DNA from: a virus
Lineage: Duplodnaviria; Heunggongvirae; Uroviricota; Caudoviricetes
Length of the DNA: 41,111 bases
IMG/VR virus record: IMGVR_UViG_2724679059_000002
Location: 1 to 41,111 of that record
Reading direction: 5' to 3' (one strand)
Below are positions 5,336 through 36,147 of this stretch, piece after piece (position 1 is the stretch's first letter; every line of letters starts with the position of its first letter). The translations under genes were made by a program, and so were the position numbers. A model generated the notes under the pieces. The model saw only the letters and a program-made list of their open reading frames with translations, searched no databases and was not told where the DNA came from.

Positions 5336-5350
5336 TTACCTTTCAGGTGA
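5336..5350. promoter_or_regulatory. Operator-like palindrome TTACC-N5-GGTGA upstream of antirepressor-like gene
   Basis: Member of the recurrent TTACC-N5-GGTAA family; flanking sequence resembles region 24338-24410. Confidence 0.45.
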
Positions 5351-5387
5351 TTCGCAAAACGTGCTGGATAGCAAACAAATTATTTGC

Positions 5388-5407
5388 TACTGTATATTTA
5401 TACAGTT
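5388..5407. promoter_or_regulatory. LexA (SOS) box
   Basis: TACTGTATATTTATACAGTT is a near-perfect match to the CTGT-N8-ACAG LexA consensus, 20 bp upstream of the ATG at 5427. Confidence 0.7.
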
Positions 5408-5426
5408 ATTGCATGGAGAAGATAAG

Positions 5427-5684
5427 ATGCAGCAGTATCACTATCCACTGGAAGAGGGATTTACCGAAAGGATTCACACGCCGGGAGGCGTCAGGTCACT
5501 GGTGGAGGGATCGCACTTGATGAAATTACTCCGGGATCTCGATAAGGATGGATTTAATGTCGATGGCCCACTTGCCGAACTGACTGCACTGATTAACTAC
5601 GTCACCAGCTCACAGATGTCTATGCAGGATCTGCAAACACATCTCGACTATTGTGCCGAACAATTACGAAAACAAACCAGATAA
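5427..5684 (+). CDS. Small antirepressor-like protein (paralog of the C-terminal domain of the Bro-N protein at 6000..6710)
   Basis: RBS ggagaag 5 nt before ATG; 85 aa; aligns by eye with residues ~170-235 of the downstream Bro-N protein (motifs PxGV, LxxLLxxLxxDG, DxxGxxAELT, DxQTH); preceded by a LexA box. Confidence 0.55.
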   Translation: MQQYHYPLEEGFTERIHTPGGVRSLVEGSHLMKLLRDLDKDGFNVDGPLAELTALINYVTSSQMSMQDLQTHLDYCAEQLRKQTR

Positions 5685-5715
5685 GGTTTGTAATTACCAA
5701 GTAGAGTGCTTATAT

Positions 5716-5730
5716 TTACCTCTGCGGTAA
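5716..5730. promoter_or_regulatory. Operator-like palindrome TTACC-N5-GGTAA
   Basis: TTACCTCTGCGGTAA between the small antirepressor-like gene and the Bro-N gene. Confidence 0.4.
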
Positions 5731-5999
5731 ATTTACATCGCACTCCTCTTGTGCCATAGTAATCGGGCACTGGCAAAATCCAGTGCCGGGATTGGCGTCC
5801 CGATTTACTAAGTGGCGCATACCACGCCAGACGTGGTTTTTTTATGCGTTAAGCACAGCTATATCCGAATTATGGTGGGCTGGGCAGGGGTCCGAAAGGA
5901 CGCCGGTACCACTTAGGCCGGTACGCCAACCTTGTCCAGTTCACCACCAGTAATTGGCGTTGCGGTGGTGATTAAAATCACTAAGTGGAGATAACCACC

Positions 6000-6710
6000 A
6001 TGGCTAATGCTCAAACTGCCATCTTCAAATTTGAATCTGTTAACCCTATCCGTTCCATCATTATCGATGGCCAACCATGGTTTGTAGCCCAAGACGTTTG
6101 TAGTGCGCTGCGTATCCAAAACGTCACCCAAGCACTTGAAAAACTGGATGATGATGAAAGGTCTATGTTCAACATAGGGCATGAACATCGTGCAATTTTT
6201 GACAGCCGAGTAAAAGAGATCAACATCATCTCCGAGTCAGGCCTCTACACACTGATCCTCCGCTGCCGCGACGCAGTGACACCAGGCACTATCCCCTACC
6301 GCTTTCGTAAATGGGTTACAGGTGAGGTTCTTCCTCTGATCCGCCGCACTGGAAGTTACATTAAAAACTCGCTCCCGCAGGAAGAACGCATAAAGATGGT
6401 TGCCGACCAGGTAGCCAACGCCACGGCGTCAGCAGTAATGCAGGCAATGAAGATAGAGAACAAAACCTACAGCGCCCCACTGAAGCCCGGATACCGCAGC
6501 CTGATTCATTCTCCGTCTGGTGTTCTCGGCCTGACGGAGAACTCACTGCTGATGAATCTGCTGAACCAGTTACAGGAAGACGGGCACGACGTATCTGGCG
6601 CGGCGGCGGAGCTGACCACCATGTTCTGCTACATCGTTGGTGTGAGCAAATGCCTGCGTGATATCCAGACTCACGCGGAGTATATCAACGACAAAGCAGG
6701 GTTCTTCTGA
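6000..6710 (+). CDS. Bro-N domain protein (phage antirepressor-like) with C-terminal domain
   Basis: N-terminus FKFESVNPIRSIIIDGQPWFVAQDVCSAL matches the Bro-N pattern; RBS ggag upstream; C-terminal domain paralogous to 5427..5684. Confidence 0.65.
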   Translation: MANAQTAIFKFESVNPIRSIIIDGQPWFVAQDVCSALRIQNVTQALEKLDDDERSMFNIGHEHRAIFDSRVKEINIISESGLYTLILRCRDAVTPGTIPYRFRKWVTGEVLPLIRRTGSYIKNSLPQEERIKMVADQVANATASAVMQAMKIENKTYSAPLKPGYRSLIHSPSGVLGLTENSLLMNLLNQLQEDGHDVSGAAAELTTMFCYIVGVSKCLRDIQTHAEYINDKAGFF

Positions 6711-6775
6711 CGGGCGGCGGCACAGGGATGTGCCTTTAAATAATTCTGTACAGATTGCAGGTGAATAGCGTACTA

Positions 6776-6790
6776 TTACCTCAAGGGTAA
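6776..6790. promoter_or_regulatory. Operator-like palindrome TTACC-N5-GGTAA
   Basis: TTACCTCAAGGGTAA upstream of the small ORF / YafO-like pair. Confidence 0.4.
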
Positions 6791-6850
6791 ACGGATTGGT
6801 TTCATTTTTATTAATCCGTGTAATGAACTTATGAGATATGAGGTAATGTC

Positions 6851-7030
6851 ATGCGAAACGAAAAATTGCAGATGCGTAGAGCGCAAGCTGCCGCAAGACG
6901 TTCTTTCAATGGAAGCGTAGAGTACGTAAAAGTTACTATGACAAAAGATCACGCAAGTCGCGTATCCAGCGCTTTCTTTGATTCTCGTAACAATAAGGAA
7001 AATTATGAGTTTGTCTGCGTCGCAGAATGA
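6851..7030 (+). CDS. Small basic protein, candidate antitoxin-like partner (below the 60-aa track threshold)
   Basis: ATG at 6851 with SD tgagg 7 nt upstream; 59 codons; overlaps the start of the YafO-like gene by 26 nt in a different frame; Arg-rich N-terminus followed by a VKVTMTKDHASRVSSAF segment that could be a ribbon-helix-helix strand-helix. Confidence 0.3.
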   Translation: MRNEKLQMRRAQAAARRSFNGSVEYVKVTMTKDHASRVSSAFFDSRNNKENYEFVCVAE

Positions 7031-7550
7031 TAAAAATCAAATTGTCAGATATAAGGGTCGAGTATTGCATACGCAAAATTTCTCGGCCCTTTGTGCATCT
7101 GATCTTGAGCTGAAGAAAGTATCTGATGCATTTACCCAGTATTGGAAAACGGGATACCATCCATCTCTTGGTAAAGATGCCGCATTTGCTCGTCCGACAG
7201 AAATGCTTAAACTAAATGTCAGGCATACTCATGTCGATAACCAAGACTATATTCCAGAAGATAGTGATAAAAAACACACTGGTAAAAAATCATCCTGGGA
7301 TGCATGGAAAAATATAGCGTCTGTACAAGTAAAATGCATACCAACAAGTGATTGCTTTTTAGTTTATTCGGTAAATCACAATCGTGATGCGCTGGTTATG
7401 TTTTTTGTTGACGCAGATGCTCACAACATAACTGAGCAAGAAGAGTTTAAAGAGGCAGCAATCACTATCAGTTATCAATTCTTTGAGAAAACAAAAACAA
7501 AACCAATGCCTTTAGAAGAAGATCTTTTTTCTGATAAATGGAAGGAATAG
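7005..7550 (+). CDS. YafO-family toxin-like protein (ribosome-dependent mRNA interferase family)
   Basis: Aligns by eye with E. coli YafO: GKDAAFARPTEMLKLNVRHTHV vs GRDALYDDSFTWPLIKFERVAHIHL, and CFLVYSVN...ALVMFFVDADAHN vs AHLVYCQG...AWLLIAILKPEPHK; RBS aagga 5 nt before ATG; AT-rich. Confidence 0.55.
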   Translation: MSLSASQNDKNQIVRYKGRVLHTQNFSALCASDLELKKVSDAFTQYWKTGYHPSLGKDAAFARPTEMLKLNVRHTHVDNQDYIPEDSDKKHTGKKSSWDAWKNIASVQVKCIPTSDCFLVYSVNHNRDALVMFFVDADAHNITEQEEFKEAAITISYQFFEKTKTKPMPLEEDLFSDKWKE

Positions 7551-7570
7551 CCCGCACTGCGGGCTTTTTT
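7550..7570 (+). terminator. Intrinsic terminator after YafO-like gene
   Basis: gcccgc-act-gcgggc hairpin followed by tttttt. Confidence 0.55.
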
Positions 7571-7641
7571 GTGGACGAAACAAAAGTCAGTGCTACACTC
7601 ATTGACGCCACATTGAGGTGGCTTATAGATGGAAATTTCAA

Positions 7642-7803
7642 ATGAAAAAAGCATTTGCTGCACTGTTCGTTTTGTTGTCTCTGGTAGCTTCAACTCAGGC
7701 CTTTGCCGGTCGTTGTCAGCACGACAGCGATACTGCCGCTGACGGCTCCCGCTGCGGTGGGCGTTCTGCGGATTCCCGCCCGGGCGGCGGTGGCATTCGT
7801 TAA
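7642..7803 (+). CDS. Small secreted Cys-containing peptide
   Basis: 53 aa; signal peptide MKKAFAALFVLLSLVASTQAFA; Gly/Arg/Asp-rich mature part with 2 Cys; weak RBS. Confidence 0.35.
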   Translation: MKKAFAALFVLLSLVASTQAFAGRCQHDSDTAADGSRCGGRSADSRPGGGGIR

Positions 7804-7825
7804 AAACAAGGCCGCGAAAGCGGCC
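7801..7825 (-). terminator. Intrinsic terminator of the leftward structural operon
   Basis: ggccgc-gaaa-gcggcc hairpin followed on the - strand by a U-rich tract. Confidence 0.5.
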
Positions 7826-7834
7826 TGTGACATG

Positions 7835-8131
7835 TCACGTCCCTTTTCTGAATGATAGCCATTCGAAAAATGATGACATTCCACCGCAGACAATAACAAA
7901 GATGATCCCACCAAAGAAGAGAAGGCCAGCCTGCCACCACTCCCACCGCCATACATCCACAGCGCCAACCATACCAACAATCGCTCCAACAAATGGAATA
8001 TAGCTCACGATGAAAGCAATGGGGGCTGCAATTATCCAGTGCAATCCCCACCATGATTCAAGCCCAGCCATAATTGCTGCCAACTGAAAAAGACCAACGA
8101 CGATATAAACAATGAATCCTATCGCTTGCAT
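7835..8131 (-). CDS. Small integral membrane protein (Trp-rich, 3 predicted TM)
   Basis: 98 aa, strongly hydrophobic; last gene of the ejection-protein operon before the terminator. Confidence 0.5.
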   Translation of the reverse strand: MQAIGFIVYIVVGLFQLAAIMAGLESWWGLHWIIAAPIAFIVSYIPFVGAIVGMVGAVDVWRWEWWQAGLLFFGGIIFVIVCGGMSSFFEWLSFRKGT

Positions 8132-8326
8132 GTAGTCACCTATTTACCCAGTAAAAATCAGAGGCCTCCCCTCAATAAGGCTTGCAACAAGAACTATTCC
8201 CTGCACAACAAAGATGAACCAGCAAATAGCTTGAGTCTGAGGGTTAAGAAAATATTTGTAGCGGTCAATAAATAACAACCCACCAGAAATTATCACACTC
8301 AAAATAATTAAAAACAAAACACTTCC

Positions 8327-10801: not shown

Positions 10802-10806
10802 TTAAT

Positions 10807-19577: not shown

Positions 19578-19922
19578 TTACACGCCCAGTTCTTTACGCT
19601 TATCTGCGATCTTCTCGCGGAGCGTTTCGGCTTTAGCGTTATGGTGTGGCTTCTCGTTAAAGAGCAATTCGTACTCTTCACGGAGCTTATCCAGTTCACC
19701 ATCATCTGACACATCGTTGATGATTTTGGTGCTGGTTGCTGCCATAGACACCTTTCCTGCTACCTTTGCTTTTGCCTGTCTGGCTGCATCGTTAACAGGT
19801 TCCAGTGCGCTACCAGGCTCACCTTCGTATTCGATTTCTGCCCCCTCCGGCCACAGTGTGTTATGGATATGAGAGAGGCGCAGAACGCGGTATCTTGGTT
19901 TCTCACCTGACATCGATATCAC
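19578..19922 (-). CDS. Hypothetical structural-module protein
   Basis: 114-aa ORF in operon context. Confidence 0.4.
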   Translation of the reverse strand: MISMSGEKPRYRVLRLSHIHNTLWPEGAEIEYEGEPGSALEPVNDAARQAKAKVAGKVSMAATSTKIINDVSDDGELDKLREEYELLFNEKPHHNAKAETLREKIADKRKELGV

Positions 19923-24097: not shown

Positions 24098-24304
24098 TTA
24101 CTGACCAAGTAGCGTTTTACCGCTGGTATTAGCGGTTGATGTGTCGCCCTGAGAACCGGTAAGCAGCGTAGAACTACGACCAGCAGCAGCGCGACGGCGA
24201 CGAGTTTCTTCGTCGCGGGCATCAACAACGGCGGCATCCTGCTCCTGTGGTGCTGCCTGAACTTCTGGTGTTGCAGGCACTGACGGTGAGCTACCCATGC
24301 ACAT
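24098..24304 (-). CDS. Small hypothetical protein upstream of portal
   Basis: 68 aa, RBS ggag, stop overlaps the portal start region. Confidence 0.35.
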   Translation of the reverse strand: MCMGSSPSVPATPEVQAAPQEQDAAVVDARDEETRRRRAAAGRSSTLLTGSQGDTSTANTSGKTLLGQ

Positions 24305-24372
24305 ATCAATGACTCCGTACGCAATTAAATTATTACCAATTTAACCATATATGATTTATTTATCGTAGATAG

Positions 24373-24409
24373 TTGACATTTAACGCACAAATTATTACCT
24401 TTCAGGTAA
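24373..24409 (+). promoter_or_regulatory. Candidate promoter (TTGACA -35) with overlapping operator TTACC-TTTCA-GGTAA, directed toward the tRNA and moron
   Basis: Perfect TTGACA at 24373-24378; operator at 24395-24409; same architecture as the promoter at 36105-36147 and sequence similarity to 5285-5350. Confidence 0.4.
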
Positions 24410-24731
24410 CCAAAGAGTTCATTCCGGTTACTAACCTGACTGGCTTGTCGTTAAATTGAACAGGTGGAGTGAGCTTTTATTTTGAGCAGTACGGCGTATG
24501 GCACATGCTACGATAGCGGTCTGGATACGTTTAAGGGGCACCCTCCCTTGCTCGGGCAAACGAACCAGGTAGCCGGAATGTGCAAGTCGAGCGGTTTTAT
24601 TCCGCGCACGGGGATTCACCATCCCGGCGATTCGGTGTGACGCCTCGGAAGAGACGAGGGTACAACGATGAGAGCATTTATGGAGCCGCGACAAAGTGTG
24701 GCGCCTTAACAGGCTAAGTGCTCTCAGCGTT

Positions 24732-24808
24732 GTGGCATTAGCTCAGTTGGACAGAGCAACCGCCTTCTAAGCGGTTGGTCGCAGGTTCGAATCCTGCATG
24801 CCACGCCA
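24732..24808 (+). tRNA. tRNA-Arg (anticodon UCU), phage-encoded
   Basis: Full cloverleaf: acceptor GUGGCAU/AUGCCAC, D-arm gctc-agttggaca-gagc, anticodon stem accgc/gcggt with loop cuUCUaa, T-arm gcagg-ttcgaat-cctgc, discriminator G and encoded CCA; close to E. coli argU in the arms. Confidence 0.9.
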
Positions 24809-24851
24809 GAATCACGCCTAAGGACCGTGATGCCAGAAGTTCCAGGCGCTT

Positions 24852-24893
24852 GGCGGTGATAGTTTCCCTTGAAGGACTATCACCGCCCTTTTT
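24852..24893 (+). terminator. Intrinsic terminator after the tRNA
   Basis: 12-bp stem ggcggtgatagt / actatcaccgcc followed by cttttt. Confidence 0.7.
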
Positions 24894-24923
24894 ACAGCAG
24901 GACGCCATTGCGATGACTTCATG

Positions 24924-24939
24924 CTGTAAACCCGTACAG
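24924..24939. promoter_or_regulatory. Weak LexA-box-like motif
   Basis: CTGT-aaacccgt-ACAG fits CTGT-N8-ACAG but the spacer is not AT-rich. Confidence 0.25.
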
Positions 24940-24971
24940 CCACGGAAGGCATAACTCATTGCTTCCAGTTC

Positions 24972-24994
24972 GCCCGGTTCGCCGGGCATTTTTT
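24972..24994 (+). terminator. Hairpin plus U-tract 12 nt upstream of the moron start (terminator or attenuator)
   Basis: gcccgg-ttcg-ccgggc followed by attttttaagg, then RBS aggtga and ATG at 25006. Confidence 0.45.
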
Positions 24995-25005
24995 AAGGTG
25001 AGATC

Positions 25006-25425
25006 ATGAAGACAATTGATATGTTGGCTAAGTATCTAAATGAATGGCCATTAAAATATTCTCGTATCGTTCAGGCTGAAGACTGCATTTTTTATGGCGT
25101 TTTTGCTGGTAATGAAATGCATTACGAAGTAATTCAGAGTGAGGGACTGGCCGGGTTAACTCTTAGCGAAGACCATGGTACTAGCGTTACGTTCCATGAC
25201 TGGATAACAGCACAACGTTCTGAAATGGAAAAAGGCGATGTTTTTGATATTTCTCGCGCTGTTTACGCTAAAGCAAAAAGTGATAATGATTACATGAGCG
25301 AACACTTATACAACATGAAGTTACAATGCCTGCATGCGGCGCTTATTCAGAATGGGCACTTCGATAAAACAAGTGCCATCAATATTGCGGAAGCCATCAA
25401 CGCTGGATTTAATGCCATTAAGTAA
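25006..25425 (+). CDS. Moron gene of unknown function (AT-rich, opposite strand to the flanking late genes)
   Basis: 139-aa ORF with RBS aggtga; between terminase and portal on the opposite strand; flanked by terminators on both sides; no recognisable domain by eye. Confidence 0.6.
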   Translation: MKTIDMLAKYLNEWPLKYSRIVQAEDCIFYGVFAGNEMHYEVIQSEGLAGLTLSEDHGTSVTFHDWITAQRSEMEKGDVFDISRAVYAKAKSDNDYMSEHLYNMKLQCLHAALIQNGHFDKTSAINIAEAINAGFNAIK

Positions 25426-25515: not shown

Positions 25516-26991
25516 TTAAGCATATGGATCGTAATCTGTGATGGCCTTGCCTTGCTGGTTCTGCTGCCCGGGAATTCGCAGACGCTTCGACACAGGGAAC
25601 GCAAACGTCAGCAGTAGCGCATCGCCTTTACCAGGAGAACGCCCAAGCCGCTCCTTGATATCTTCCTTCGGTTCGATAACGATTTTACCGTCCACTCGAA
25701 CTTTGTACTCTGCCGCAGACAGGTCGTCCGCTGTTTCCTGGTCATCCAGCATGCCGCCCAGCCTCAGCCATGTCTTGCATGAGTTGAACATCTCCCCACG
25801 CTTGTTGAGCATCTGCGGGTCAGTAGACGCGCCACCGAACGGAACAAGTTGCCATGTACGACCCCAGCCATCACCGATTGACTTCAGACCAGTTCCGTAA
25901 CCGAAGTCGATGAACACTGCGTCAGCCTGGTACCGGTCTTCAAAGTCAGCGATACGCTTCGCCATAATCAGATCGTCAGTGGTCTTGTTGCCAGTCCACA
26001 GCACCTTACTGTGCAGCCCCTGCCGCAGGTATATCACAGCGTCATCAACGCCGGAGTATGCCGGGTCAACGCCGATTATCACCGGAGCATGTGCAACCTG
26101 CGCAGCGGTTACCACCCGTTTCATTGCCTCGTCAGTAAGGCCGGTAGGGATAAACTGCAATTCAGATGCATCCGGGAATATGCCGCGCACACGGATTTTA
26201 ACGAAGTCGCTGTCTTCCCCGTAGTCATCAACCCATTTCTGCAACTGCTGTTTGTTAGTGCCTTCCACCGTCCGGCTGTCAATCTGCGCAGTTTTCCAGC
26301 GGTGTTTATATTTGCGGAAACATTCGCGAAAACGCCCGGTGTTACGTGTAGGGTTTCCGAACGCCACCCAGATAATCTCAGTGTCTTCGTCCGTAAGCGC
26401 ACCCTCAGCAACTTCCCACACCAGATCCGCAATGTTCGACGCTTCATCGAATACCACGATGATGCGTTTGCGCTCGTTGTGTAGTCCGGCGAATGCCTCA
26501 GTGTTGTGCTCAGACCAGGGTATTGCGTCAGCCCGCCACCGCTTGTCGTGCCCAGGGTCATTGCTGTACATCGCGGTAGCGGTACAGGTAAACCAGTCTT
26601 TCGTGATAGCAAGGTTCGACCACTTGATAATTTCCGGCCAGGTCTTCGTTCGTAGCTGGTTGTCGGTGTTGGCGGTCACCACGACCTTACAATCCTCGCA
26701 AGTGGACATGCCCCAGTTGATCAGCATTGAGATGAATGCGGATTTACCAATACCGTGACCAGAAGCGCGTGCCAACATAAGCGGCTGATAGCGCGTCTCT
26801 GGATTCTGCAGGTGATCACGTATCTCTCGGAACGCATCAGCCTGCCACTGACGTGGGCCGGTAGCATGTGCCAGTTCAGTCCCCTCTTCCCCCCACGGGA
26901 ACGCATAGAGGGCATAGCCAAGCGGATCGTGAGTGAACCCTGCAATATCCTCGATTAACTGCTCTTCAGGAGATAACGCTGTATCTGTCAC
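25516..26991 (-). CDS. Terminase large subunit
   Basis: 491 aa; Walker A-like GHGIGKS; acidic nuclease-type motifs in the C-terminal half; positioned between terS and portal. Confidence 0.8.
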   Translation of the reverse strand: MTDTALSPEEQLIEDIAGFTHDPLGYALYAFPWGEEGTELAHATGPRQWQADAFREIRDHLQNPETRYQPLMLARASGHGIGKSAFISMLINWGMSTCEDCKVVVTANTDNQLRTKTWPEIIKWSNLAITKDWFTCTATAMYSNDPGHDKRWRADAIPWSEHNTEAFAGLHNERKRIIVVFDEASNIADLVWEVAEGALTDEDTEIIWVAFGNPTRNTGRFRECFRKYKHRWKTAQIDSRTVEGTNKQQLQKWVDDYGEDSDFVKIRVRGIFPDASELQFIPTGLTDEAMKRVVTAAQVAHAPVIIGVDPAYSGVDDAVIYLRQGLHSKVLWTGNKTTDDLIMAKRIADFEDRYQADAVFIDFGYGTGLKSIGDGWGRTWQLVPFGGASTDPQMLNKRGEMFNSCKTWLRLGGMLDDQETADDLSAAEYKVRVDGKIVIEPKEDIKERLGRSPGKGDALLLTFAFPVSKRLRIPGQQNQQGKAITDYDPYA

Positions 26992-27584
26992 TGATTACCA
27001 TCCTGACGTTCTTTGAGTCGCTTCCTGGCTGCTGCTATGCGATCAGCAATTGTCACATTCACATTAACATCCAGGCGTTCTTTGAATGCGTTGACGTCGA
27101 CGTGCTTACCAATCAGTTCGAGGTTCTTCACCTTGTCAGGCCATTTAATTTTTTTGAGGATTGTCTCTATCGAATCCTCGTTCATGTTCATGATGGTCGA
27201 TGACAGATCAAAGCCGCTAAGCGTAGTGCGCCAGATTTTCGGCCACTCGCGGATTGGCTTAAGGCTCCCATCGTCGTTGAGGATGTCGATCACGTCCATC
27301 TGGTCGATCTCCACCAGGCGCATGAGAACGTAATCAGCACTGACGCGCATTCGTTTGTTGCGCTCCTCCATCAACTCGGCAATCCGTTTCTGAATGCGTT
27401 CATCGCGCATCATGACACTGGCTTTAACTGCCGCTGTATTTGGGGAGAATCCTGCGTTAATCGCAGCCTGAGTCTGATTTTCAGGCGTTTTGATGTATGA
27501 CTGGCAATAAGCCTCCTGCATTGCTGTTAGTGGCTTAAATTGCGTTGATTTGCGTTTATAGGTTTTAGGTTCAGCAGGCATCAT
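26988..27584 (-). CDS. Terminase small subunit (P27-family-like)
   Basis: Immediately upstream of and overlapping terL; start assigned to internal ATG-ATG at 27584 (track ORF begins at a TTG at 27662). Confidence 0.6.
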   Translation of the reverse strand: MMPAEPKTYKRKSTQFKPLTAMQEAYCQSYIKTPENQTQAAINAGFSPNTAAVKASVMMRDERIQKRIAELMEERNKRMRVSADYVLMRLVEIDQMDVIDILNDDGSLKPIREWPKIWRTTLSGFDLSSTIMNMNEDSIETILKKIKWPDKVKNLELIGKHVDVNAFKERLDVNVNVTIADRIAAARKRLKERQDGNQ

Positions 27585-27658
27585 AACCACCGTGGTAATA
27601 GTTACCGTTGTGGTAATAGTACCATGCAAAATAAAGCCGCCATAGTTGGCGGCAGTAT

Positions 27659-27871
27659 TCAAAGTCCATCAAATTCATCGTAAAAACTCTCGTCAAGATA
27701 CCCTTTCCATTTACCGCGAATGAAAATTACATCCTCGCCGCAAGGGTGCTGACTGTCGATAACTATATCCCTCCTGGCGCAACCATACTTATGCATGAGA
27801 AATTTAACCTCTTTCGGAAAATTAGCTGAGTTATCTCTCATATCTTCAAGGTCGTAGCGTATTTTTGGCAT
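27659..27871 (-). CDS. Hypothetical small protein upstream of terS
   Basis: Start set to ATG at 27871 (MPKIRYD...) with RBS gaaggtg; the palindrome GTGACATGTCAC lies immediately upstream. Confidence 0.4.
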   Translation of the reverse strand: MPKIRYDLEDMRDNSANFPKEVKFLMHKYGCARRDIVIDSQHPCGEDVIFIRGKWKGYLDESFYDEFDGL

Positions 27872-27888: not shown

Positions 27889-28230
27889 TCACACTATTAA
27901 TTTCGTTTCATGCCAGCCTTTGGTCACCCAGCATTGCGAGTCACCATTACACGGGCATGAATTAACTGGAACTCTCTCGCCGCACTTACCGCAACGTTTT
28001 CTGCTGATCGATTTTATACGCCCGCGCACCCGGGCATCATCCTGGCGGATCAGCAGCGCGATGTACTCGGCCATTTCATAGGGATCTCGACCAGGGCGCC
28101 GGGCGGCGCAGTTACGCTCCAGCATTTCAATTTCCTGAGCATCAAGCACAATCTCCAGCTTACGCACACCAGATGCAGCTTGTCTGGCTCTCTGAGCGGC
28201 TTTGCGCTCTGCTGCTGATTTAGCCATCAA
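27889..28230 (-). CDS. Hypothetical protein with C-terminal Cys cluster (possible zinc-binding regulator)
   Basis: 113 aa; C-terminus CGKCGERVPVNSCPCNGDSQC; basic, helical N-terminus. Confidence 0.4.
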   Translation of the reverse strand: MMAKSAAERKAAQRARQAASGVRKLEIVLDAQEIEMLERNCAARRPGRDPYEMAEYIALLIRQDDARVRGRIKSISRKRCGKCGERVPVNSCPCNGDSQCWVTKGWHETKLIV

Positions 28231-28370
28231 TATTTACCTTTATCGCGTATACCTTTACCGGTTTATCGCCGAAGTGGGGATGTGTGATTGTCTTTGCTTC
28301 GTGCATTTGTCGCACTTTCGGCACCATCCAGATAGGCACATCCGTCCGCAATTAACACATATAGGCCACA

Positions 28371-31101: not shown

Positions 31102-31147
31102 TGGTTGCCTCCTGTTAAATTTTCTGTGATATCAGCGTTTACGACGA

Positions 31148-32607: not shown

Positions 32608-32668
32608 CTTTACCCTCGCTTATCCACATAACTTATTGATTACATTGATAACTAAAAAGATCGTCGAT

Positions 32669-33013
32669 TCAGAACTCTTCGATGTTCCAGCCACCACCTG
32701 CTTTCTTTGGCTTAACCGTTACCCCGATGATTCGGAACGGATACTGATCTGCGGCGACTTTGGTTTTCACCCTAGCGTCATCGGTCCAGAAACCTTTCAC
32801 TTCGTGCAGTTCCATCTCGCCGGTGGCGAGCATCACAGCAAAATCGGGCGTATAGAACGTGTTGTCAGCTAACCGCAGCTTGAGACCCTCGAATCGATAC
32901 CAGGCGATTTCCCCTGCACGTTTACGCTGCTCAAGGTGCTGGCAATACGCAGATTCTGTTTTGTTCATCTGACCTGTTTTGAGTCGACCAAGAGCCTGTA
33001 TCTGTTTTCTCAT
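32669..33013 (-). CDS. DUF1064-family phage protein
   Basis: 114 aa with FYTPDF and HEVKG motifs characteristic of DUF1064; nin-like position after replication gene P. Confidence 0.5.
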   Translation of the reverse strand: MRKQIQALGRLKTGQMNKTESAYCQHLEQRKRAGEIAWYRFEGLKLRLADNTFYTPDFAVMLATGEMELHEVKGFWTDDARVKTKVAADQYPFRIIGVTVKPKKAGGGWNIEEF

Positions 33014-33016
33014 GAT

Positions 33017-33093
33017 TTACCCCTGAGGTAATTAAAAACCACATAAGACACGAAATCAATAGATTTTAGTATATTTTATTACCCGACAGGTAA
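33017..33093 (-). promoter_or_regulatory. Candidate internal promoter flanked by two operator-like palindromes
   Basis: On the - strand TTGATT-17 bp-TTTAAT, with TTACC-CCTGA-GGTAA (33017-33031) overlapping the RBS of the DUF1064 gene and TTACC-CGACA-GGTAA (33079-33093) upstream. Confidence 0.35.
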
Positions 33094-33130
33094 TCATTTA
33101 GGAGTAAAAAAATGCGCTATCGCGCTGGTA

Positions 33131-33907
33131 TTACTTGATAAATCCTGCCGCCTTTCCCCGCCTGTATTCCTCCATCAGCCACTGTGCCGGTGTTATTCCA
33201 CCCAGGGTGGCGGCGTTAGGCATGCACCCGAAACTTCGCCCTGGTGGATGGTAAACGTCTCTCCCTGTGTCCGGAGGTGTACTCATGGGTTCTGGCTTTG
33301 CCTGTATGCTGATCACCGGATCGGGTATCTGCTGTCCGGAAGCCACCTTTTTCGCCCAATCATCGAGCAACCTGCGCGCGTGTTTCTCAACCTCAATCTC
33401 GCTAAGCTGGCGCTGATACATTGCACGGCGGGTATCACATACTACCCAGTACATAACCGGATGTCGCCACGGGAATCTTTCGGGACCACCAGGATATAAA
33501 CTTTTTTCCTTGCTGTACCGGTGAAACTCCGCCATCACATCGTCAATGGTGACGCCAAGAACCATCTTGCTGTCTTTACACCACTTGATGAATTGCCCTG
33601 GCGACGGCCAGAACGGAGACTCACTGGCGCGGGCGTGGCGCATACCAGCGTTAACCTGTTCCATTGTAGTGATCCCATTCTCCAGAAACGCAAGCATCCA
33701 TTGCTTACGGAATTCATTAAGTTTGTTCTGCTCCCTTATGGTCGAAACGCTTGCAGGAAATGCAGCCTGTAACTGGACAAATAGTTCATTGAAAATTCTA
33801 GCGACCTGCTCCTTTTTGCCATTGCTGTCACGCCGCTCTTCATGCACAGCAACACCATGCTCACGTAAGCGATCGTACTCATTGAGAAGTTCTGGAGTTG
33901 ATTTCAT
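33131..33907 (-). CDS. P: Replication protein P-like (DnaB helicase loader)
   Basis: FPASVSTIREQNKLNEFRKQWMLAFLENGITTMEQVNAGMRHAR aligns closely with lambda P (FPASLANRDQNEVNEIRRQWVLAFRENGITTMEQVNAGMRVAR). Confidence 0.85.
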   Translation of the reverse strand: MKSTPELLNEYDRLREHGVAVHEERRDSNGKKEQVARIFNELFVQLQAAFPASVSTIREQNKLNEFRKQWMLAFLENGITTMEQVNAGMRHARASESPFWPSPGQFIKWCKDSKMVLGVTIDDVMAEFHRYSKEKSLYPGGPERFPWRHPVMYWVVCDTRRAMYQRQLSEIEVEKHARRLLDDWAKKVASGQQIPDPVISIQAKPEPMSTPPDTGRDVYHPPGRSFGCMPNAATLGGITPAQWLMEEYRRGKAAGFIK

Positions 33908-34721
33908 CCCACACCCCTTCTATCCAGTCAGTGTTATTCCAGTCAAGCTCATCGCTTTTCCCGACGTTTTTTGATTTTCCCCTGATATGATTTACGTGCC
34001 TGGCGAATTTTTGTTCCCACTGAACCTGCGTGAACACTTTGCCCTCAGCCATCCAGTAATCCCGGAATGCAGCAAGTTCAGCAGGTGTAAATTCCGGTTC
34101 CGGCAGGGCCGTTCCCCACAGCGCAGCACGCCGTCGAAAATCCGGCGACGGATGCCAGCCATCGGTCATCGGAAATTTCCCAATAGGTTCACTCAGGCCA
34201 TCCAGAAATGCAGGTTCTGCCACCTGCAACGGCGTACCGTTCGCTTCACTGGTCGGATCACTCTCGCGCGCGTGTGCTATGTGTGGGGTTTTATATATAT
34301 CTTCCTCTTCCTCTGGTAACTCCTTTTGTAACGCTGTTGGCGTTACTTTTTGCGTTACTCGTTTTCGATGCTCTGCCACTCTTCTATTCGTAAGTGCACG
34401 TTTTTTCGATGATTCTCCATTGTGTCGCTCAAAGTTTGGAAGAATTAGTTTGCCGTCATGATAAGCAAGCCATCCGACGCTAATGAGGGCGTCAGCAAAT
34501 CCTGTAATAAAAGCGAGTCTATCAAGTACTCCTTTTGTAACGCTGCCAGCGTTACCGTCTATTGTTTGCTGGTCAGCCCATGCCCATATACGAACCAGCT
34601 TTCCAAGAACAGCATCTGGATCAATACCCAGAATTTCTGCTATCTGAAAAATTTCAGGTTTATCAGGAGTGATAACTTCAACCTTAATCCAGCTGCTTGC
34701 CATAGGTTTCCCCTCTTGCAC
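33879..34721 (-). CDS. Replication initiator, lambda O-like by position
   Basis: Immediately upstream of and overlapping P; acidic linker EEEEDIY; contains iteron-like repeats. Confidence 0.55.
   Translation of the reverse strand: MQEGKPMASSWIKVEVITPDKPEIFQIAEILGIDPDAVLGKLVRIWAWADQQTIDGNAGSVTKGVLDRLAFITGFADALISVGWLAYHDGKLILPNFERHNGESSKKRALTNRRVAEHRKRVTQKVTPTALQKELPEEEEDIYKTPHIAHARESDPTSEANGTPLQVAEPAFLDGLSEPIGKFPMTDGWHPSPDFRRRAALWGTALPEPEFTPAELAAFRDYWMAEGKVFTQVQWEQKFARHVNHIRGKSKNVGKSDELDWNNTDWIEGVWDEINSRTSQ
34320..34555. repeat. Candidate replication-origin iterons inside the O-like gene
   Basis: Two 27-bp copies ctccttttgtaacgctgNNNgcgttac at 34320-34346 and 34529-34555, each with internal dyad GTAACGCTG/CAGCGTTAC, plus an extra GCGTTAC at ~34351. 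Confidence 0.45.
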
Positions 34722-34896
34722 TCTTTAGTGCACAAGCAAATTCATTACGATGGCGGTTGGCGCTATTCATTGCACATTCAACACATGTTCCGTTCAGAAC
34801 ATACCTTTCAGAGAGATGGCCGTGACGGCACCGCTTTCCTGTGAAATAGCGATTTAACCCGGCTTTTGCGGCCTCCATTCTGGTTACTATCTTCAA
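34684..34896 (-). CDS. Small Cys-rich (zinc-ribbon-like) protein between cro-like and O-like genes
   Basis: 70 aa, CRHGH...CVEC; occupies the position of cII in the lambda gene order but has no obvious similarity to it. Confidence 0.4.
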   Translation of the reverse strand: MKIVTRMEAAKAGLNRYFTGKRCRHGHLSERYVLNGTCVECAMNSANRHRNEFACALKSARGETYGKQLD

Positions 34897-34974
34897 TTTT
34901 TCCGCCTCTTTTTGTTATTGATATTGGATATTTTGCACAATTGGAAAATTTGATCAACCAGATTTGGTTTTTTA

Positions 34975-34989
34975 TTACCTTTGAGGTAC
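34975..34989. promoter_or_regulatory. Operator-like palindrome TTACC-TTTGA-GGTAC
   Basis: Member of the repeat family, just downstream (in transcription direction) of the hairpin at 35004-35023. Confidence 0.35.
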
Positions 34990-34995
34990 GAATAG

Positions 34996-35023
34996 ATATG
35001 AAAAGACCGCCGGGTGGCGGTCT
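34996..35023 (-). terminator. tR1-like terminator downstream of cro-like gene
   Basis: Perfect 8-bp stem agaccgcc-gggt-ggcggtct followed on the - strand by a U-rich tract (uuuucauaucuauu). Confidence 0.45.
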
Positions 35024-35044
35024 ACAGAGGGTTGTAGCTGGATA

Positions 35045-35275
35045 TCATGAGTAGAAGAAGTATGCCAGTTCTGCTTTTGAGCGCAGCCATTGTCTTGTTT
35101 TACAGGCTTTAAAAAGCCCATTCATCAATACTTTACCTGGCATTTTGCGCTTACCTGTTAAGTGAGTCTGGATATAGTGACTCGTCGTTCCGGCTTCCTG
35201 TGCGAAGGCTTCACGCTCATCCGGAGTAAGTGCAAGCCAGTGCTTTTTGAAATCGAAATGTCCGTTATCGCTCAT
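35045..35275 (-). CDS. Cro/CII-like HTH regulator (first gene of the operon divergent from the repressor)
   Basis: 76 aa; HTH-like segment AFAQEAGTTSHYIQTHLTGKR; divergent from the CI-like gene across an operator-containing region. Confidence 0.5.
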   Translation of the reverse strand: MSDNGHFDFKKHWLALTPDEREAFAQEAGTTSHYIQTHLTGKRKMPGKVLMNGLFKACKTRQWLRSKAELAYFFYS

Positions 35276-35311
35276 AGCTATTGCCTGATATTTATTTCAG
35301 ATAATAAATAT

Positions 35312-35374
35312 TCACCCATAAGGTAACAAAAATCAAGGATAGTTACCTATGAGGTGCATTTACCTGTTGGGTAA
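35312..35374. promoter_or_regulatory. Immunity-region operators: three TTACC-N5-GGTAA-type sites between cro-like and repressor genes
   Basis: Sites at 35312-35326 (TCACC-CATAA-GGTAA), 35343-35357 (TTACC-TATGA-GGTGC) and 35360-35374 (TTACC-TGTTG-GGTAA), centre spacing 31 and 17 bp; half-sites resemble lambda operator half-sites (TCACC / GGTA). Confidence 0.6.
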
Positions 35375-35429
35375 TATTGCTTTAAATTGAATCATCTACT
35401 GATTCATATATGAGGCGATTTTCCAGAAA

Positions 35430-36014
35430 ATGAAAAGTATCCAGGACGTCCGCAGGCAAAATCTCAACGACTTGATCGACCGTGAATTCAATGGTGTTCA
35501 GACGCGGATGGCAGAAAAACTTGGAACTCAGGCAAATCTGGTAAACCGCTGGGCTCTTGGCAAGAAGGTTATCGGCGACCAGGTTGCGCGAAAAATTGAA
35601 GCTGCCGCCAATAAACCCCGTAACTGGCTTGATATCGATCGCTCGCTTTCTCAGGAGGGGTTTCAGCCTGTCGGCCCAAGCGACATTGGTCAGCTGGCGG
35701 CTCACAACCTGGAACGCTGGATGAGCGAAAGCCGCGACCTTTCAACGCAGGGAAAACTACACCGCGCATCCGGCGTCGCCCAGGTGACAATCAGCCGCCT
35801 GTTAAACAATGAAGTCAGCGTTTCCATTTCCACCCTGGAGAATGTTGCATCCGCATTCGGGCGTCACGGCTATGAATTACTGATTCACCCGCACGACCCT
35901 GCGACTATCAACTATGACCGCTCGCGCTACGCATTGTTACCCGAAACAGAGAAGGCAAAGATCGAAAGTTACATTGAATTTGTCATCAGCCAGAACGAAA
36001 GAAGCAAACAATAA
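35430..36014 (+). CDS. CI-like prophage repressor with two HTH regions and no S24 peptidase domain
   Basis: HTH at QTRMAEKLGTQANLVNRWALGK and a second HTH-like segment ASGVAQVTISRLLNNE; no Ser-Lys autocleavage motifs; divergent from the cro-like gene. Confidence 0.6.
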   Translation: MKSIQDVRRQNLNDLIDREFNGVQTRMAEKLGTQANLVNRWALGKKVIGDQVARKIEAAANKPRNWLDIDRSLSQEGFQPVGPSDIGQLAAHNLERWMSESRDLSTQGKLHRASGVAQVTISRLLNNEVSVSISTLENVASAFGRHGYELLIHPHDPATINYDRSRYALLPETEKAKIESYIEFVISQNERSKQ

Positions 36015-36070
36015 AACTATAGTTTTCAGTAAGTAAGCCGCCTCATGGCGCTTTTTTATTGCCAACAAGA

Positions 36071-36147
36071 TTACCTTATGGGTAATTTTTTTAACTCATA
36101 TCTATTGACATCAAACCAAATACGCATAATTATTACCTCAACGGTAA
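36071..36147 (+). promoter_or_regulatory. PL-like early promoter with flanking operators
   Basis: Operator TTACC-TTATG-GGTAA (36071-36085), TTGACA (36105-36110), 17-bp spacer, AATTAT (36128-36133), operator TTACC-TCAAC-GGTAA (36133-36147). Confidence 0.5.

What the first reader, a model, noticed from the sequence alone, without database searches (positions are those of the whole stretch)
5336..36147. A 15-bp palindrome TTACC-N5-GGTAA occurs at least 13 times, in the immunity region and upstream of morons, the tRNA and an internal early promoter
Copies seen by eye: 5336, 5716, 6776, 24395, 33017, 33079, 34975, 35312, 35343, 35360, 36071, 36133 (start coordinates), plus a degenerate copy near 36148-36160. 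The three in the cI/cro intergenic region and two flanking the PL-like promoter look like classical operators, but lambda-type repressors normally bind only at OL/OR. The extra sites imply the same regulator also controls the antirepressor/Bro-N/toxin genes, the tRNA-moron unit and a promoter inside the early operon. Regions 5285-5350 and 24338-24410 also share extended similarity (attacc ... aaccatatatg ... attacctttcaggt), suggesting a duplicated promoter-operator cassette.
Basis: seen in the sequence. Interest (0 to 1): 0.62.

Follow-up and report, generated by a model that had tools for sequence, protein, structure and literature searches.

The report
Known repressor operators of an ε15-like prophage
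The repeated palindrome is real. It is almost certainly the binding site of this ε15/phiV10-type phage's own repressor, placed at nearly every phage promoter, and the same sites are already annotated in the phage ε15 reference genome, so the finding is sound but not new.

Summary
TTACC-N5-GGTAA occurs 9 times exactly (0.01 expected) and 13 times with at most 1 mismatch (0.73 expected). The "copy" at 36148 is only a half-site.

The window is an ε15/phiV10-like podophage (Uetakevirus). Its repressor (35430-36014) is a homologue of SPC32H Rep (PDB 5D50_A). The small gene 5427-5684 is a homologue of SPC32H Ant (5D50_E), and a perfect LexA box sits in front of it.

The ε15 RefSeq record already marks seven such palindromes as repressor-binding sites. 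They lie upstream of terminase, of gp3 and of the tail fibre gene, left of the repressor gene, and inside the early operon. These positions are syntenic with the window's sites.

Six sequenced relatives and six enterobacterial prophages carry the motif at the same places with the same spacings (62, 17-18 and 30-31 bp). A Pseudomonas phage with the same structural genes but a lambdoid switch has none.

The best reading is a single tetrameric repressor that gates nearly every transcription unit. It is relieved by a LexA-controlled antirepressor.

This is a known kind of system. Interest is low, about 0.2. Side observations include a second conserved motif at the three late promoters and an isrK-C4-Bro-N module under an operator.

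The parts
35430..36014 (+). Rep, the prophage repressor (194 aa; N-terminal HTH, middle HTH_3 region, C-terminal part)
   Evidence: phmmer match to SPC32H Repressor 5D50_A, E=4.5e-42 over residues 1-190. Pfam HTH_3 at 106-147, no peptidase domain. NLVNRW (residues 36-41) is invariant in 7 phages.
35045..35275 (-). Cro-like small regulator (ε15 gp39 / phiV10p41 homologue), divergent from rep
   Evidence: phrog_35 'transcriptional repressor', E=5.6e-13. Synteny with phiV10p41.
35312..35326 (.). Operator in the rep/cro intergenic region (TCACCCATAAGGTAA, 1 mismatch), inside the core of the cro-ward promoter
   Evidence: Promoter-like TTGTTA-17-TATTAT at 35329..35301 on the minus strand.
35343..35357 (.). 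Middle operator (TTACCTATGAGGTGC, 2 mismatches)
   Evidence: Aligns with the perfect operators of ε15, SPC32H, PAT1 and BUCT711.
35360..35374 (.). Operator nearest rep (exact), 17 bp from the middle one
   Evidence: the 17-bp spacing recurs in relatives.
36071..36085 (.). Distal operator of the early-left (PL-like) promoter, just after the rep stop codon (36014)
   Evidence: 62 bp from 36133.
36105..36133 (+). PL-like sigma-70 promoter TTGACA-17-AATTAT
   Evidence: 10 of 12 matches. TATTGAC is invariant in 7 phages.
36133..36147 (.). Proximal operator of the PL-like promoter; its first T is the last base of the -10
36148..36162 (.). Right half-site only (CAGACCGAGGTAACA); doubles as the Shine-Dalgarno region of the first early-left gene
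   Evidence: ε15-type phages instead have a full third operator 76 bp away.
33017..33031 (.). Proximal operator of the internal early-right promoter, 4 nt before the ATG of the DUF1064 gene (33013)
   Evidence: Arms invariant in 7 phages.
33031..33059 (-). Internal early promoter TTGATT-17-TTTAAT (read by eye from the alignment)
   Evidence: TATTGA is invariant and the -10 ends on the first T of the operator. The strict scan did not flag it.
33079..33093 (.). Distal operator, 62 bp from 33017, just after the T-run that ends the replication-gene unit
34975..34989 (.). Single operator (1 mismatch) 15 nt after the terminator of the cro-like gene, upstream of the gp40-like gene
   Evidence: Terminator at 35023..35004. 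Syntenic site in phiV10 at 33112.
27584..27598 (.). Operator (1 mismatch) abutting the small terminase ATG (27584..27582)
   Evidence: Syntenic pairs in ε15 (12, 30) and phiV10 (87, 105). TerS read from 27584 gives 198 aa with a Terminase_2 match.
27602..27616 (.). Operator (exact), 18 bp from 27584. An extended -10-like TGGTACTAT (27624..27616, minus strand, by eye) ends on its first T.
   Evidence: Terminator at 27653..27636 directly upstream. ε15 site 12-27 is annotated as repressor-binding.
24395..24409 (.). Operator between the head operon (gp3, 24324, leftward) and the tRNA unit. It overlaps the -10 (TACCTT) of a rightward TTGACA-17 promoter (24373-24401, by eye). It lies 62 bp from the late-promoter 17-mer.
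   Evidence: TTGAC and the arms are invariant in 7 phages. The ε15 equivalent 2931-2947 is annotated as repressor-binding.
24732..24808 (+). tRNA-Arg(UCU), downstream of the operator-overlapped promoter
5336..5350 (.). Operator (1 mismatch) in the divergent ant/tailspike region
   Evidence: The ε15 equivalent 19895-19911 is annotated as repressor-binding.
5390..5405 (.). LexA (SOS) box CTGTATATTTATACAG in the spacer of the ant promoter (TTGCTA 5384-5389, TATTGC 5407-5412, by eye)
   Evidence: Conserved in all 7 phages.
5427..5684 (+). Ant, the small antirepressor (85 aa)
   Evidence: phmmer match to SPC32H anti-repressor 5D50_E, E=1.6e-47. 85-88% identical to ε15 and SPC32H Ant.
5688..5716 (+). 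Promoter TTGTAA-17-TATATT; its last T is the first T of the 5716 operator
   Evidence: The register is conserved in phiV10, Tyrion and BUCT711.
5716..5730 (.). Operator (exact) gating the isrK-C4-Bro-N unit
5767..5951 (+). isrK-like sRNA (5767-5843) and C4 antisense RNA (5868-5951)
   Evidence: Rfam RF01394, 68.3 bits, and RF01695, 66 bits, both above gathering score.
5985..6710 (+). Bro-N domain protein (candidate second antirepressor)
   Evidence: Pfam Bro-N, E=1e-19. Overexpression of the ZX5 Bro-N 'ORF4', assumed here to be its orthologue, lowered lysogeny (PMC9782041).
6776..6790 (.). Operator (exact) overlapping a TTGCAG-16-TACCTC promoter-like site (6755-6782, by eye), upstream of a small ORF (6851-7030) and a YafO-like toxin gene (6978-7550)
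   Evidence: Among listed phages this unit is shared in full only with TL-2011b.
5285..5306 (-). Late-promoter-like element CATATATGGTT-N5-GGTAAT upstream of the tailspike gene
24332..24353 (-). The same element upstream of gp3 and the head operon
3146..3156 (-). CATATATGGTT upstream of the lysis cassette. This window has no operator here, unlike ε15 and phiV10.

Best explanation
The palindrome (extended form A-TTACC-WWWWW-GGTAA-T, 17 bp) is the operator of the phage's own repressor, Rep (35430-36014). Rep is a homologue of the tetrameric Rep of Salmonella phage SPC32H.

The genome is cut into short transcription units, each ended by a terminator, and most units restart from their own promoter carrying one or two operators. 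There is no recognisable lambda-style antitermination cascade.

At four promoters the operator starts on the last base of the -10 hexamer, so bound Rep would cover roughly -7 to +8 and block RNA polymerase. These are the PL-like promoter, the internal early promoter, the isrK-C4-Bro-N promoter and the terminase promoter. At two others (the tRNA unit and the toxin unit) the -10 lies inside the left arm. At the cro-ward promoter the operator sits in the spacer.

Two promoters also carry a second operator exactly 62 bp upstream, about six helical turns and therefore on the same face of the DNA. A Rep tetramer, which has two DNA-binding units, could hold both and clamp the promoter.

In the lysogen, Rep silences early, replication, packaging, head and tailspike units, the tRNA and two accessory units. 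The lysis unit carries no operator in this window, though it does in ε15 and phiV10. On DNA damage LexA leaves the SOS box at 5390-5405 and the small antirepressor Ant (5427-5684) is made. Ant disassembles Rep tetramers and all operators are freed together.

Shown here: the sites, their enrichment, conservation and geometry, and the homology of Rep and Ant. Taken from others: the ε15 annotation of these sites as repressor sites, and SPC32H Rep and Ant biochemistry as summarised in secondary sources. Inferred: Rep binding at each site of this phage, promoter occlusion, and bridging of the 62-bp pairs.
For: - Enrichment: 9 exact matches against 0.01 expected; 13 against 0.73 with one mismatch.
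- All 14 sites are intergenic and adjoin promoter-like or terminator features.
- The ε15 RefSeq record marks 7 such palindromes as 'protein_bind: repressor, lysogeny', at positions syntenic with window sites 27602, 24395, 5336, 36071/36133 and 33079.
- Each of six Uetakevirus genomes from four host genera has 8-11 exact copies, and six prophages from other enterobacteria have 4-7 near rep.
- Pseudomonas phage Ab31 shares the structural module (TerL 53% identical) but has lambdoid CI, Cro and Q. It has no exact copy.
- In alignments of syntenic regions the arms are invariant, while the central 5 bp and the flanks vary.
- Spacings of 62, 17-18 and 30-31 bp recur in nearly every genome.
- Rep matches 5D50_A at E=4.5e-42 and Ant matches 5D50_E at E=1.6e-47. 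A perfect LexA box is conserved in all 7 phages.
- Rep is only 42-45% identical between the window and ε15-type phages, yet NLVNRW in the N-terminal HTH is invariant, matching the invariant half-site.
- Five distant relatives with a different helix carry no exact copy of the motif.
- Rep of SPC32H binds palindromic DNA as a tetramer, and Ant breaks the tetramer (PMC9638917). Its two pairs of middle dimerization domains (MDDs) point in opposite directions, about 100 Å apart (PMC9986798).
- In phage ZX5, whose immunity region is about 98% identical, repressor overexpression cut holin and endolysin mRNA by 99.97-99.99% (PMC9782041).
Against: - No binding experiment exists for this phage. I could not read the primary ε15 and SPC32H papers, so which sites were shown to bind Rep is unknown to me.
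- The ε15 annotation is probably a prediction.
- The strict promoter scan flagged only three of the proposed promoters. The others were read by eye, and some have weak -10 or -35 elements.
- The 5336 and 34975 operators do not overlap an obvious promoter core, so how they act is unclear.
- A 62-bp loop is tight, and bridging by one tetramer is inferred.
- The window has no operator at the lysis cassette, where ε15 and phiV10 have one, so coverage is not complete.
- The Cro-like protein may share some or all of the sites.
Confidence: 0.85

Rival explanations
1. The Cro-like protein (35045-35275) is the main binder of the motif, or binds it alongside Rep, as lambda Cro and CI share operators.
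For: The gene is divergent from rep and three operators lie between the two genes. It matches phrog_35 'transcriptional repressor' at E=5.6e-13. Shared operators are the rule in CI/Cro switches (established knowledge).
Against: The ε15 record assigns the sites to the repressor of lysogeny. Silencing of late and accessory promoters makes sense for the maintenance repressor. A palindrome bound by a tetramer with two DNA-binding units fits the paired sites. No Pfam HTH was found in the Cro-like protein. As a co-binder in the rep/cro region this is plausible. As the sole binder it is unlikely.
Confidence: 0.25
2. The motif is the site of a host factor or of another phage protein, such as the PerC-like, AlpA-like or gp49-like regulators, rather than of Rep.
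For: The phage encodes several other predicted regulators. ε15 annotates IHF sites next to some operators.
Against: The motif occurs in phages of Escherichia, Salmonella, Klebsiella and Enterobacter and in prophages of five further enterobacterial genera (Superficieibacter, Erwinia, Citrobacter, Scandinavium, Klebsiella), always together with a Rep homologue. It clusters most densely on both sides of rep. It is absent where the structural module is paired with a different switch (Ab31). I know of no E. coli regulator with this consensus (own knowledge).
Confidence: 0.04
3. The palindromes act as RNA or DNA hairpins (terminators, processing or pause sites), not as protein-binding sites.
For: Each 17-mer can fold into a 5-7 bp hairpin. 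Several lie next to terminators.
Against: The hairpins are weak (-3.5 to -4.5 kcal/mol) and have no T-run. Across 7 phages the arms are invariant in sequence and show no compensatory change, whereas a pure structure could covary. The sites sit in a fixed register with -10 hexamers.
Confidence: 0.02
4. It is a chance or compositional artefact.
For: There are more two-mismatch matches than shuffles predict: 30 beyond the 13 better ones, against about 10 expected. Composition therefore inflates weak matches somewhat.
Against: 0 of 100 shuffles reach the observed exact or one-mismatch counts. All strong sites are intergenic and conserved by synteny.
Confidence: 0.005

Closest known systems
Repressor-binding sites annotated in Salmonella phage ε15 (RefSeq NC_004775.2; genome paper Kropinski et al. 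2007, Virology 369:234, which I could not read)
   Same: The arms are the same (TTACC-N5-GGTAA), the repressor family is the same, and the dispersed positions are the same: upstream of terminase, of gp3 and of the tail fibre/gp19 region, left of rep, and inside the early-right operon.
   Different: The window's Rep is only 42% identical. The window has extra sites at the isrK-C4-Bro-N promoter, at the YafO-like unit and after the cro-like terminator. It lacks the lysis-cassette site and the third full operator left of rep. The ε15 record does not annotate the three sites between rep and gp39, nor the second site of the internal pair.
SPC32H Rep / Ant / LexA lysis-lysogeny switch (Kim & Ryu 2013, J Virol 87:11775; Kim et al. 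2016, PNAS 113:E2480; PDB 5D50, 5D4Z)
   Same: Rep and Ant are homologues. ant is divergent from the tailspike gene. The LexA box is conserved. SPC32H carries 10 exact copies of the motif at the same places.
   Different: SPC32H has no Bro-N, isrK or C4 module and no YafO-like unit. I could not read which operators were tested experimentally.
Phage P1 C1 repressor with many operators dispersed over the genome, including Op51 in front of the c4-icd-ant (immI) operon (own knowledge)
   Same: One maintenance repressor gates many separate operons. One of these is an operon that begins with a C4 antisense RNA and ends in an antirepressor.
   Different: The P1 operator is an asymmetric 17-mer and C1 is a different protein family. 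Here the site is a palindrome for an HTH protein.
Mycobacteriophage L5 gp71 'stoperators' (own knowledge)
   Same: Many repressor sites lie outside the immunity region, in short intergenic gaps.
   Different: L5 sites are asymmetric 13-mers, orientation-biased, about 30 per genome, and act on elongation. Here most sites overlap promoter cores.
Lambda CI at OL/OR, with cooperative binding to sites 5-6 helical turns apart (own knowledge)
   Same: There are three operators between divergent repressor and cro-like genes, and paired sites about 6 turns apart.
   Different: There is no S24 autocleavage domain. Induction is by an antirepressor. Operators lie far outside the immunity region.

Membership tests
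ε15/SPC32H-type Rep operator regulon (Uetakevirus immunity system) | Full-length Rep homologue (N-terminal DNA-binding HTH, middle dimerisation domain, C-terminal tetramerisation and Ant-binding part) | tested here: met
   5D50_A at E=4.5e-42 over residues 1-190 of 194. Aligns end to end with ε15, SPC32H, Tyrion, BUCT711 and PAT1 Rep.
ε15/SPC32H-type Rep operator regulon (Uetakevirus immunity system) | Small Ant antirepressor divergent from the tailspike gene | tested here: met
   5D50_E at E=1.6e-47. Same gene order as SPC32H ant/tsp.
ε15/SPC32H-type Rep operator regulon (Uetakevirus immunity system) | LexA box at the ant promoter | tested here: met
   CTGTATATTTATACAG at 5390-5405, conserved in 7 phages.
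ε15/SPC32H-type Rep operator regulon (Uetakevirus immunity system) | TTACC-N5-GGTAA palindromes at the positions annotated as repressor sites in ε15 | tested here: met
ε15/SPC32H-type Rep operator regulon (Uetakevirus immunity system) | Rep physically binds these sites and represses the adjacent promoters | not testable with these tools
   The only evidence is indirect. ZX5 repressor overexpression abolishes holin and endolysin mRNA, and a secondary account states that SPC32H Rep binds palindromic DNA as a tetramer.
Lambda CI-type switch (S24 autocleaving repressor, operators only at OL/OR) | C-terminal S24 (LexA-like) peptidase domain | tested here: not met
   Pfam finds only HTH families. 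The best solved relative is SPC32H Rep.
Lambda CI-type switch (S24 autocleaving repressor, operators only at OL/OR) | Three operators between divergent repressor and cro genes | tested here: met
   35312, 35343 and 35360.
Lambda CI-type switch (S24 autocleaving repressor, operators only at OL/OR) | Operators confined to the immunity region | tested here: not met
   Nine of the 14 sites lie outside it.
P1 C1-type dispersed operator regulon | Many operators at separate operons across the genome | tested here: met
   At least 9 separate loci.
P1 C1-type dispersed operator regulon | Asymmetric 17-bp operator and a C1-family repressor | tested here: not met
   The site is a perfect palindrome. Rep belongs to the HTH_3/XRE type.
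P1 immI-like antirepressor module | C4 antisense RNA upstream of an antirepressor gene, behind a repressor-controlled promoter | tested here: met
   Rfam C4 at 66 bits and isrK at 68.3 bits. Bro-N gene downstream. Promoter 5688-5716 abuts operator 5716. The function of the Bro-N protein as an antirepressor of Rep was not tested.
L5 gp71 stoperators | Asymmetric, orientation-dependent sites inside transcription units that act on elongation | tested here: not met
   The sites are symmetric and mostly overlap promoter cores. Only 34975 and the terminase pair could act as roadblocks.

The most novel reading that the evidence does not exclude
Three linked readings remain open.

1. The invariant 62-bp operator pairs let one Rep tetramer hold both sides of a promoter, forming a promoter clamp or micro-loop of six helical turns. 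The single operators 50-62 bp upstream of the late-promoter element CATATRTGGTT-N5-GGTAAT would work the same way, using a half-site.

2. The operator arms and the NLVNRW helix are invariant across phages of at least eight enterobacterial genera, although Rep is only about 43% identical. The whole genus may therefore be one immunity group, with divergence confined to the rest of Rep.

3. Ant stays 85-88% identical.

As far as I could check, none of this has been described.
Probability: 0.3. Interest if true: 0.45.

Novelty: already known. Interest (0 to 1): 0.2.

Why it matters
The finding gives a complete map of where the prophage repressor should act in a phiV10/TL-2011b-type phage of E. coli, whose own database records carry no operator annotation.

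It shows that this phage family controls nearly every transcription unit directly with one repressor rather than through an antitermination cascade. This includes packaging, head and tailspike genes, a tRNA and accessory genes.

That is useful for anyone engineering these phages, which are used as O157 and Salmonella reporter phages, and for interpreting prophage gene expression. It does not change what is known about the family.

Tried and rejected
- **Primary papers not available.** I tried to read Kropinski 2007 (DOI and PMC2698709), Kim & Ryu 2013 (PMC3807360) and Kim 2016 (PMC4983836). None is held. My recollection that the ε15 paper gives the consensus ATTACCWDWWNGGTAAT is therefore unverified. 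Full-text searches for the motif and for 'repressor binding' together with epsilon15 found nothing relevant.
- **No natural specificity variant found.** I looked for a Rep with a changed recognition helix and a changed palindrome at the same positions. All full-length Rep homologues in the phage collection and in genomes keep NLVNRW and the same motif. Five distant relatives (Paraburkholderia, Hydrogenovibrio, Thiomicrospira) match only the N-terminal domain. They have a different helix and no exact copy of the motif, but no clear palindrome of their own could be identified. This is only weak support for covariation.
- **RNA hairpin reading rejected**.
- **Lysis-cassette operator not found.** A degenerate operator upstream of the window's lysis cassette was sought and none had 2 mismatches or fewer.
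- **Strict promoter scans found nothing** at 24250-25050 or 27480-27760. The promoters proposed there rest on reading by eye and on conservation.
- **Technical failures.** Some fetched loci were not visible to Python at first. An Rfam scan of five genomes exceeded the size limit.

Full report
**Observation.** An exact scan for TTACCNNNNNGGTAA finds 9 copies where dinucleotide-preserving shuffles give 0.01. Allowing one mismatch gives 13 copies against 0.73 expected, and no shuffle exceeds 4.
- Eight are exact.
- 5336, 34975 and 35312 have one mismatch.
- 35343 has two.

The "degenerate copy" at 36148 keeps only the right arm. With two mismatches allowed there are 43 hits against 11 expected. 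The 29 weak hits other than 35343 are nearly all inside genes, and I treat them as compositional. All 14 credible sites lie between genes.

**What the window is.** The immunity region is 97-98% identical to Escherichia phages HEMP4, ZX5, TL-2011b and phiV10, which are Uetakevirus (ε15-like) podophages. Gene order matches phiV10 and ε15 in reverse orientation.

The product of 35430-36014 matches the repressor of Salmonella phage SPC32H (PDB 5D50 chain A) at E=4.5e-42 over its whole length. Pfam finds only helix-turn-helix families in it and no LexA-like peptidase domain.

The 85-residue product of 5427-5684 matches the SPC32H anti-repressor (5D50 chain E) at E=1.6e-47, about 90% identical. A perfect SOS box, CTGTATATTTATACAG, lies at 5390-5405 just upstream.

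Secondary accounts state that SPC32H Rep binds palindromic DNA as a tetramer. They also state that tetrameric Ant splits it into dimers (PMC9638917). Rep has an N-terminal DNA-binding domain, a middle dimerisation domain and a C-terminal tetramerisation domain, with the two pairs of middle dimerisation domains pointing in opposite directions about 100 Å apart (PMC9986798).

**Already annotated in the family.** The RefSeq record of ε15 carries seven features labelled "protein_bind, repressor, lysogeny":
- 12-27, upstream of the small terminase gene.
- 2931-2947, upstream of gp3.
- 19895-19911, between gp19 and the tail fibre gene.
- 32479, 32554 and 32616, left of the repressor gene.
- 35906-35922, inside the early-right operon.

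All seven are TTACC-N5-GGTAA. ε15 has 15 copies with one mismatch or fewer (0.61 expected) and phiV10 has 14 (0.65 expected), at positions syntenic with the window's. The dispersed operators are therefore a recorded feature of this phage family. From memory, the ε15 genome paper gives a 17-bp consensus of this form, but I could not read it.

**Comparative evidence gathered here.** Six complete relatives each carry 8-11 exact copies: phiV10, ε15, SPC32H, Enterobacter phage Tyrion, Klebsiella phage BUCT711 and Salmonella phage PAT1. Six prophages in Superficieibacter, Erwinia, Klebsiella, Citrobacter and Scandinavium carry 4-7 copies within 3 kb of their rep gene.

Pseudomonas phage Ab31 shares the structural module (large terminase 53% identical) but has lambdoid CI, Cro and Q genes. 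It has no exact copy. The motif therefore travels with the Rep-type switch, not with the virion genes.

In alignments of five syntenic intergenic regions, both arms are invariant in all seven phages while the central five bases and much of the flank vary. Pooling 151 sites gives A at the position before TTACC (61%) and an A/T-rich centre.

Rep itself is only 42-45% identical between the window and the ε15-type or Klebsiella phages. By region this is 54% for the N-terminal domain, 33-35% for the middle and 45% for the C-terminus. Yet the stretch NLVNRW (residues 36-41) is invariant. Five distant relatives that match only the N-terminal domain have a different sequence there and carry no exact copy of the motif.

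**Anatomy.** Spacings recur across genomes: two pairs 62 bp apart (61-63 in a few genomes) in nearly every genome, adjacent pairs 17-18 bp apart, and 30-31 bp between the second and third sites next to rep.

In the window:
- **PL-like promoter.** 36071 and 36133 bracket the promoter TTGACA-17-AATTAT (36105-36133). Its last base is the first T of the proximal operator.
- **Internal early promoter.** 33079 and 33017 bracket TTGATT-17-TTTAAT (33059-33031, minus strand) in the same register, four bases before the ATG of the DUF1064 gene. The distal site follows the T-run that ends the replication-gene unit.
- **isrK-C4-Bro-N promoter.** The same register holds at 5688-5716 (TTGTAA-17-TATATT) in front of operator 5716. 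It is kept even in BUCT711, where the flanks are unrelated.
- **Terminase promoter.** By eye, the same register holds for an extended -10-like TGGTACTAT in front of 27602. It lies between a terminator (27653-27636) and the terminase ATG at 27584, which gives a 198-aa TerS as in ε15.
- **tRNA unit and toxin unit.** At 24395 and 6776 a TTGACA or TTGCAG -35 lies 16-17 bases before TACCTT or TACCTC, that is, inside the left arm.
- **Between rep and the cro-like gene.** Three operators are conserved. One lies inside the cro-ward promoter core.
- **After the cro-like terminator.** 34975 lies 15 bases after that terminator. How it acts is unclear.

**What the distal sites control.**
- Downstream of 5716 lie an isrK-like sRNA, a C4 antisense RNA (Rfam, both above gathering score) and a Bro-N gene. 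This is a P1 immI-like second antirepressor module.
- Downstream of 6776 lie a small ORF and a YafO-like toxin gene. Among listed phages the unit is shared in full only with TL-2011b.
- The promoter at 24373-24401 faces the tRNA-Arg(UCU) gene.
- The 5336 site lies between ant and the tailspike gene. It is about 77 bp upstream of the likely ant transcription start, so it is probably not the main control of ant, which carries the LexA box. It lies 50 bp (centre to centre) upstream of a conserved element preceding the tailspike gene.

**The "duplicated cassette".** The similarity between 5285-5350 and 24338-24410 is real. CATATATGGTT-N5-GGTAATA occurs twice (0.09 expected). The core CATATRTGGTT occurs exactly three times in the window (0.04 expected), each upstream of and pointing toward a late unit: the lysis cassette, the tailspike gene and the head operon. 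It is conserved at the same three places in the relatives. I read it as a late-promoter or late-activator element shared across the family, not as a recent duplication. Its GGTAAT is one operator half-site.

**Mechanism proposed.** Rep is the maintenance repressor and binds a 17-bp palindrome at most of the phage's promoters. Binding on or next to the -10 blocks RNA polymerase. A tetramer with two DNA-binding units can also hold a second operator six helical turns upstream, or an adjacent one.

The genome is divided by terminators into units that each restart from a Rep-gated promoter, so no antiterminator is needed. DNA damage removes LexA from the ant promoter. Ant then dismantles Rep tetramers and all units are released.

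In the closely related phage ZX5, repressor overexpression abolished free phage and cut holin and endolysin mRNA by 99.97-99.99% (PMC9782041). That fits global silencing but does not map operators.

The homologies, sites and geometry are shown here. Binding, occlusion and bridging are inferred.

**Rivals.**
- The Cro-like protein (phrog_35) may share the sites between rep and cro. It is unlikely to be the sole binder.
- A host factor is unlikely, given the host range of the motif and its absence from Ab31.
- An RNA hairpin role is rejected. The hairpins are weak (-3.5 to -4.5 kcal/mol) and the arms are invariant in sequence rather than covarying.
- Chance is excluded.

**Novelty and score.** The kind of system is known: ε15 repressor sites, the SPC32H Rep/Ant/LexA switch, and by analogy P1 C1 with its many operators, including one before c4-ant. 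In this window the sites at the Bro-N module, at the YafO-like unit and after the cro-like terminator add instances beyond the ε15 annotation.

As far as I could check, three points are undescribed: the fixed 62-bp bracket, the fixed -10/operator register, and the family-wide invariance of operator and recognition helix. They are modest extensions. Interest is 0.2.

Noticed in passing
window 3146-3156, 5296-5306, 24343-24353 (all minus strand): A second conserved motif, CATATRTGGTT, occurs exactly three times (0.04 expected). Each copy is upstream of and oriented toward a late unit: the lysis cassette, the tailspike gene and the head operon. Two copies extend to CATATATGGTT-N5-GGTAATA. The motif is conserved at the same places in phiV10, ε15, SPC32H, Tyrion, BUCT711 and PAT1, and is a candidate late-promoter or late-activator site.
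   Followed up: partly
window 5390-5405 and 5427-5684: A perfect LexA box lies in front of an 85-aa gene about 90% identical to the SPC32H antirepressor Ant (PDB 5D50_E). This gene, not the Bro-N gene, is the homologue of the proven antirepressor.
   Followed up: yes
window 5767-5843 and 5868-5951: An isrK-like sRNA and a C4 antisense RNA (both above the Rfam gathering score) lie between an operator-gated promoter and the Bro-N gene. The layout resembles P1 immI and the Gifsy isrK module.
   Followed up: partly
window 35430-36014 versus 5427-5684: Rep is only 42-45% identical between phiV10-type and ε15-type or Klebsiella phages. Its partner Ant is 85-88% identical in phiV10, ε15 and SPC32H (65% in BUCT711), and the operator arms are invariant. 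This is an unusual pattern of divergence for an immunity system.
   Followed up: partly
window 6851-7030 and 6978-7550: A small ORF plus a YafO-like toxin gene (Pfam YafO_toxin, E=1.2e-05) lie behind an exact operator. If Rep represses this unit, it would be silent in the lysogen, unlike typical accessory genes (morons). Among listed phages it is shared in full only with TL-2011b.
   Followed up: partly
window 26988-27662; phiV10 (L001) 41-715: The longest small-terminase ORF (TTG at 27662), and the phiV10 CDS as deposited, run through the two operators. The likely start is the ATG at 27584, which gives 198 aa as in ε15.
   Followed up: partly
window 3157-3236: ε15 (24704) and phiV10 (24692) have an operator about 47 bp upstream of the lysis-cassette CATATRTGGTT. 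In this window the tailspike gene directly precedes the lysis cassette, and there is no operator with 2 mismatches or fewer.
   Followed up: yes
window, coding regions throughout: There are about 30 matches with exactly two mismatches, against about 10 expected from shuffles. Nearly all are inside genes. This is probably a codon-composition effect that dinucleotide shuffles do not capture, but it is unexplained.
   Followed up: no
window 1-1070 and 39945-41111: The left end encodes a glycine-zipper/TraT-like protein and a DUF5384 protein. The right end cuts off the start of a P4-type integrase. The window therefore looks like a prophage or a permuted genome that opens between the integrase gene and the lysis genes.
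   Followed up: no
window 27889-28230 (minus strand) and 38725-39024 (plus strand): Two further predicted regulators are candidate readers of the late-promoter motif. One is the gp49-like gene, three genes upstream of terminase near the end of the early-right operon (phrog_536 'transcriptional regulator'). The other is a PerC-like activator in the early-left operon.
   Followed up: no
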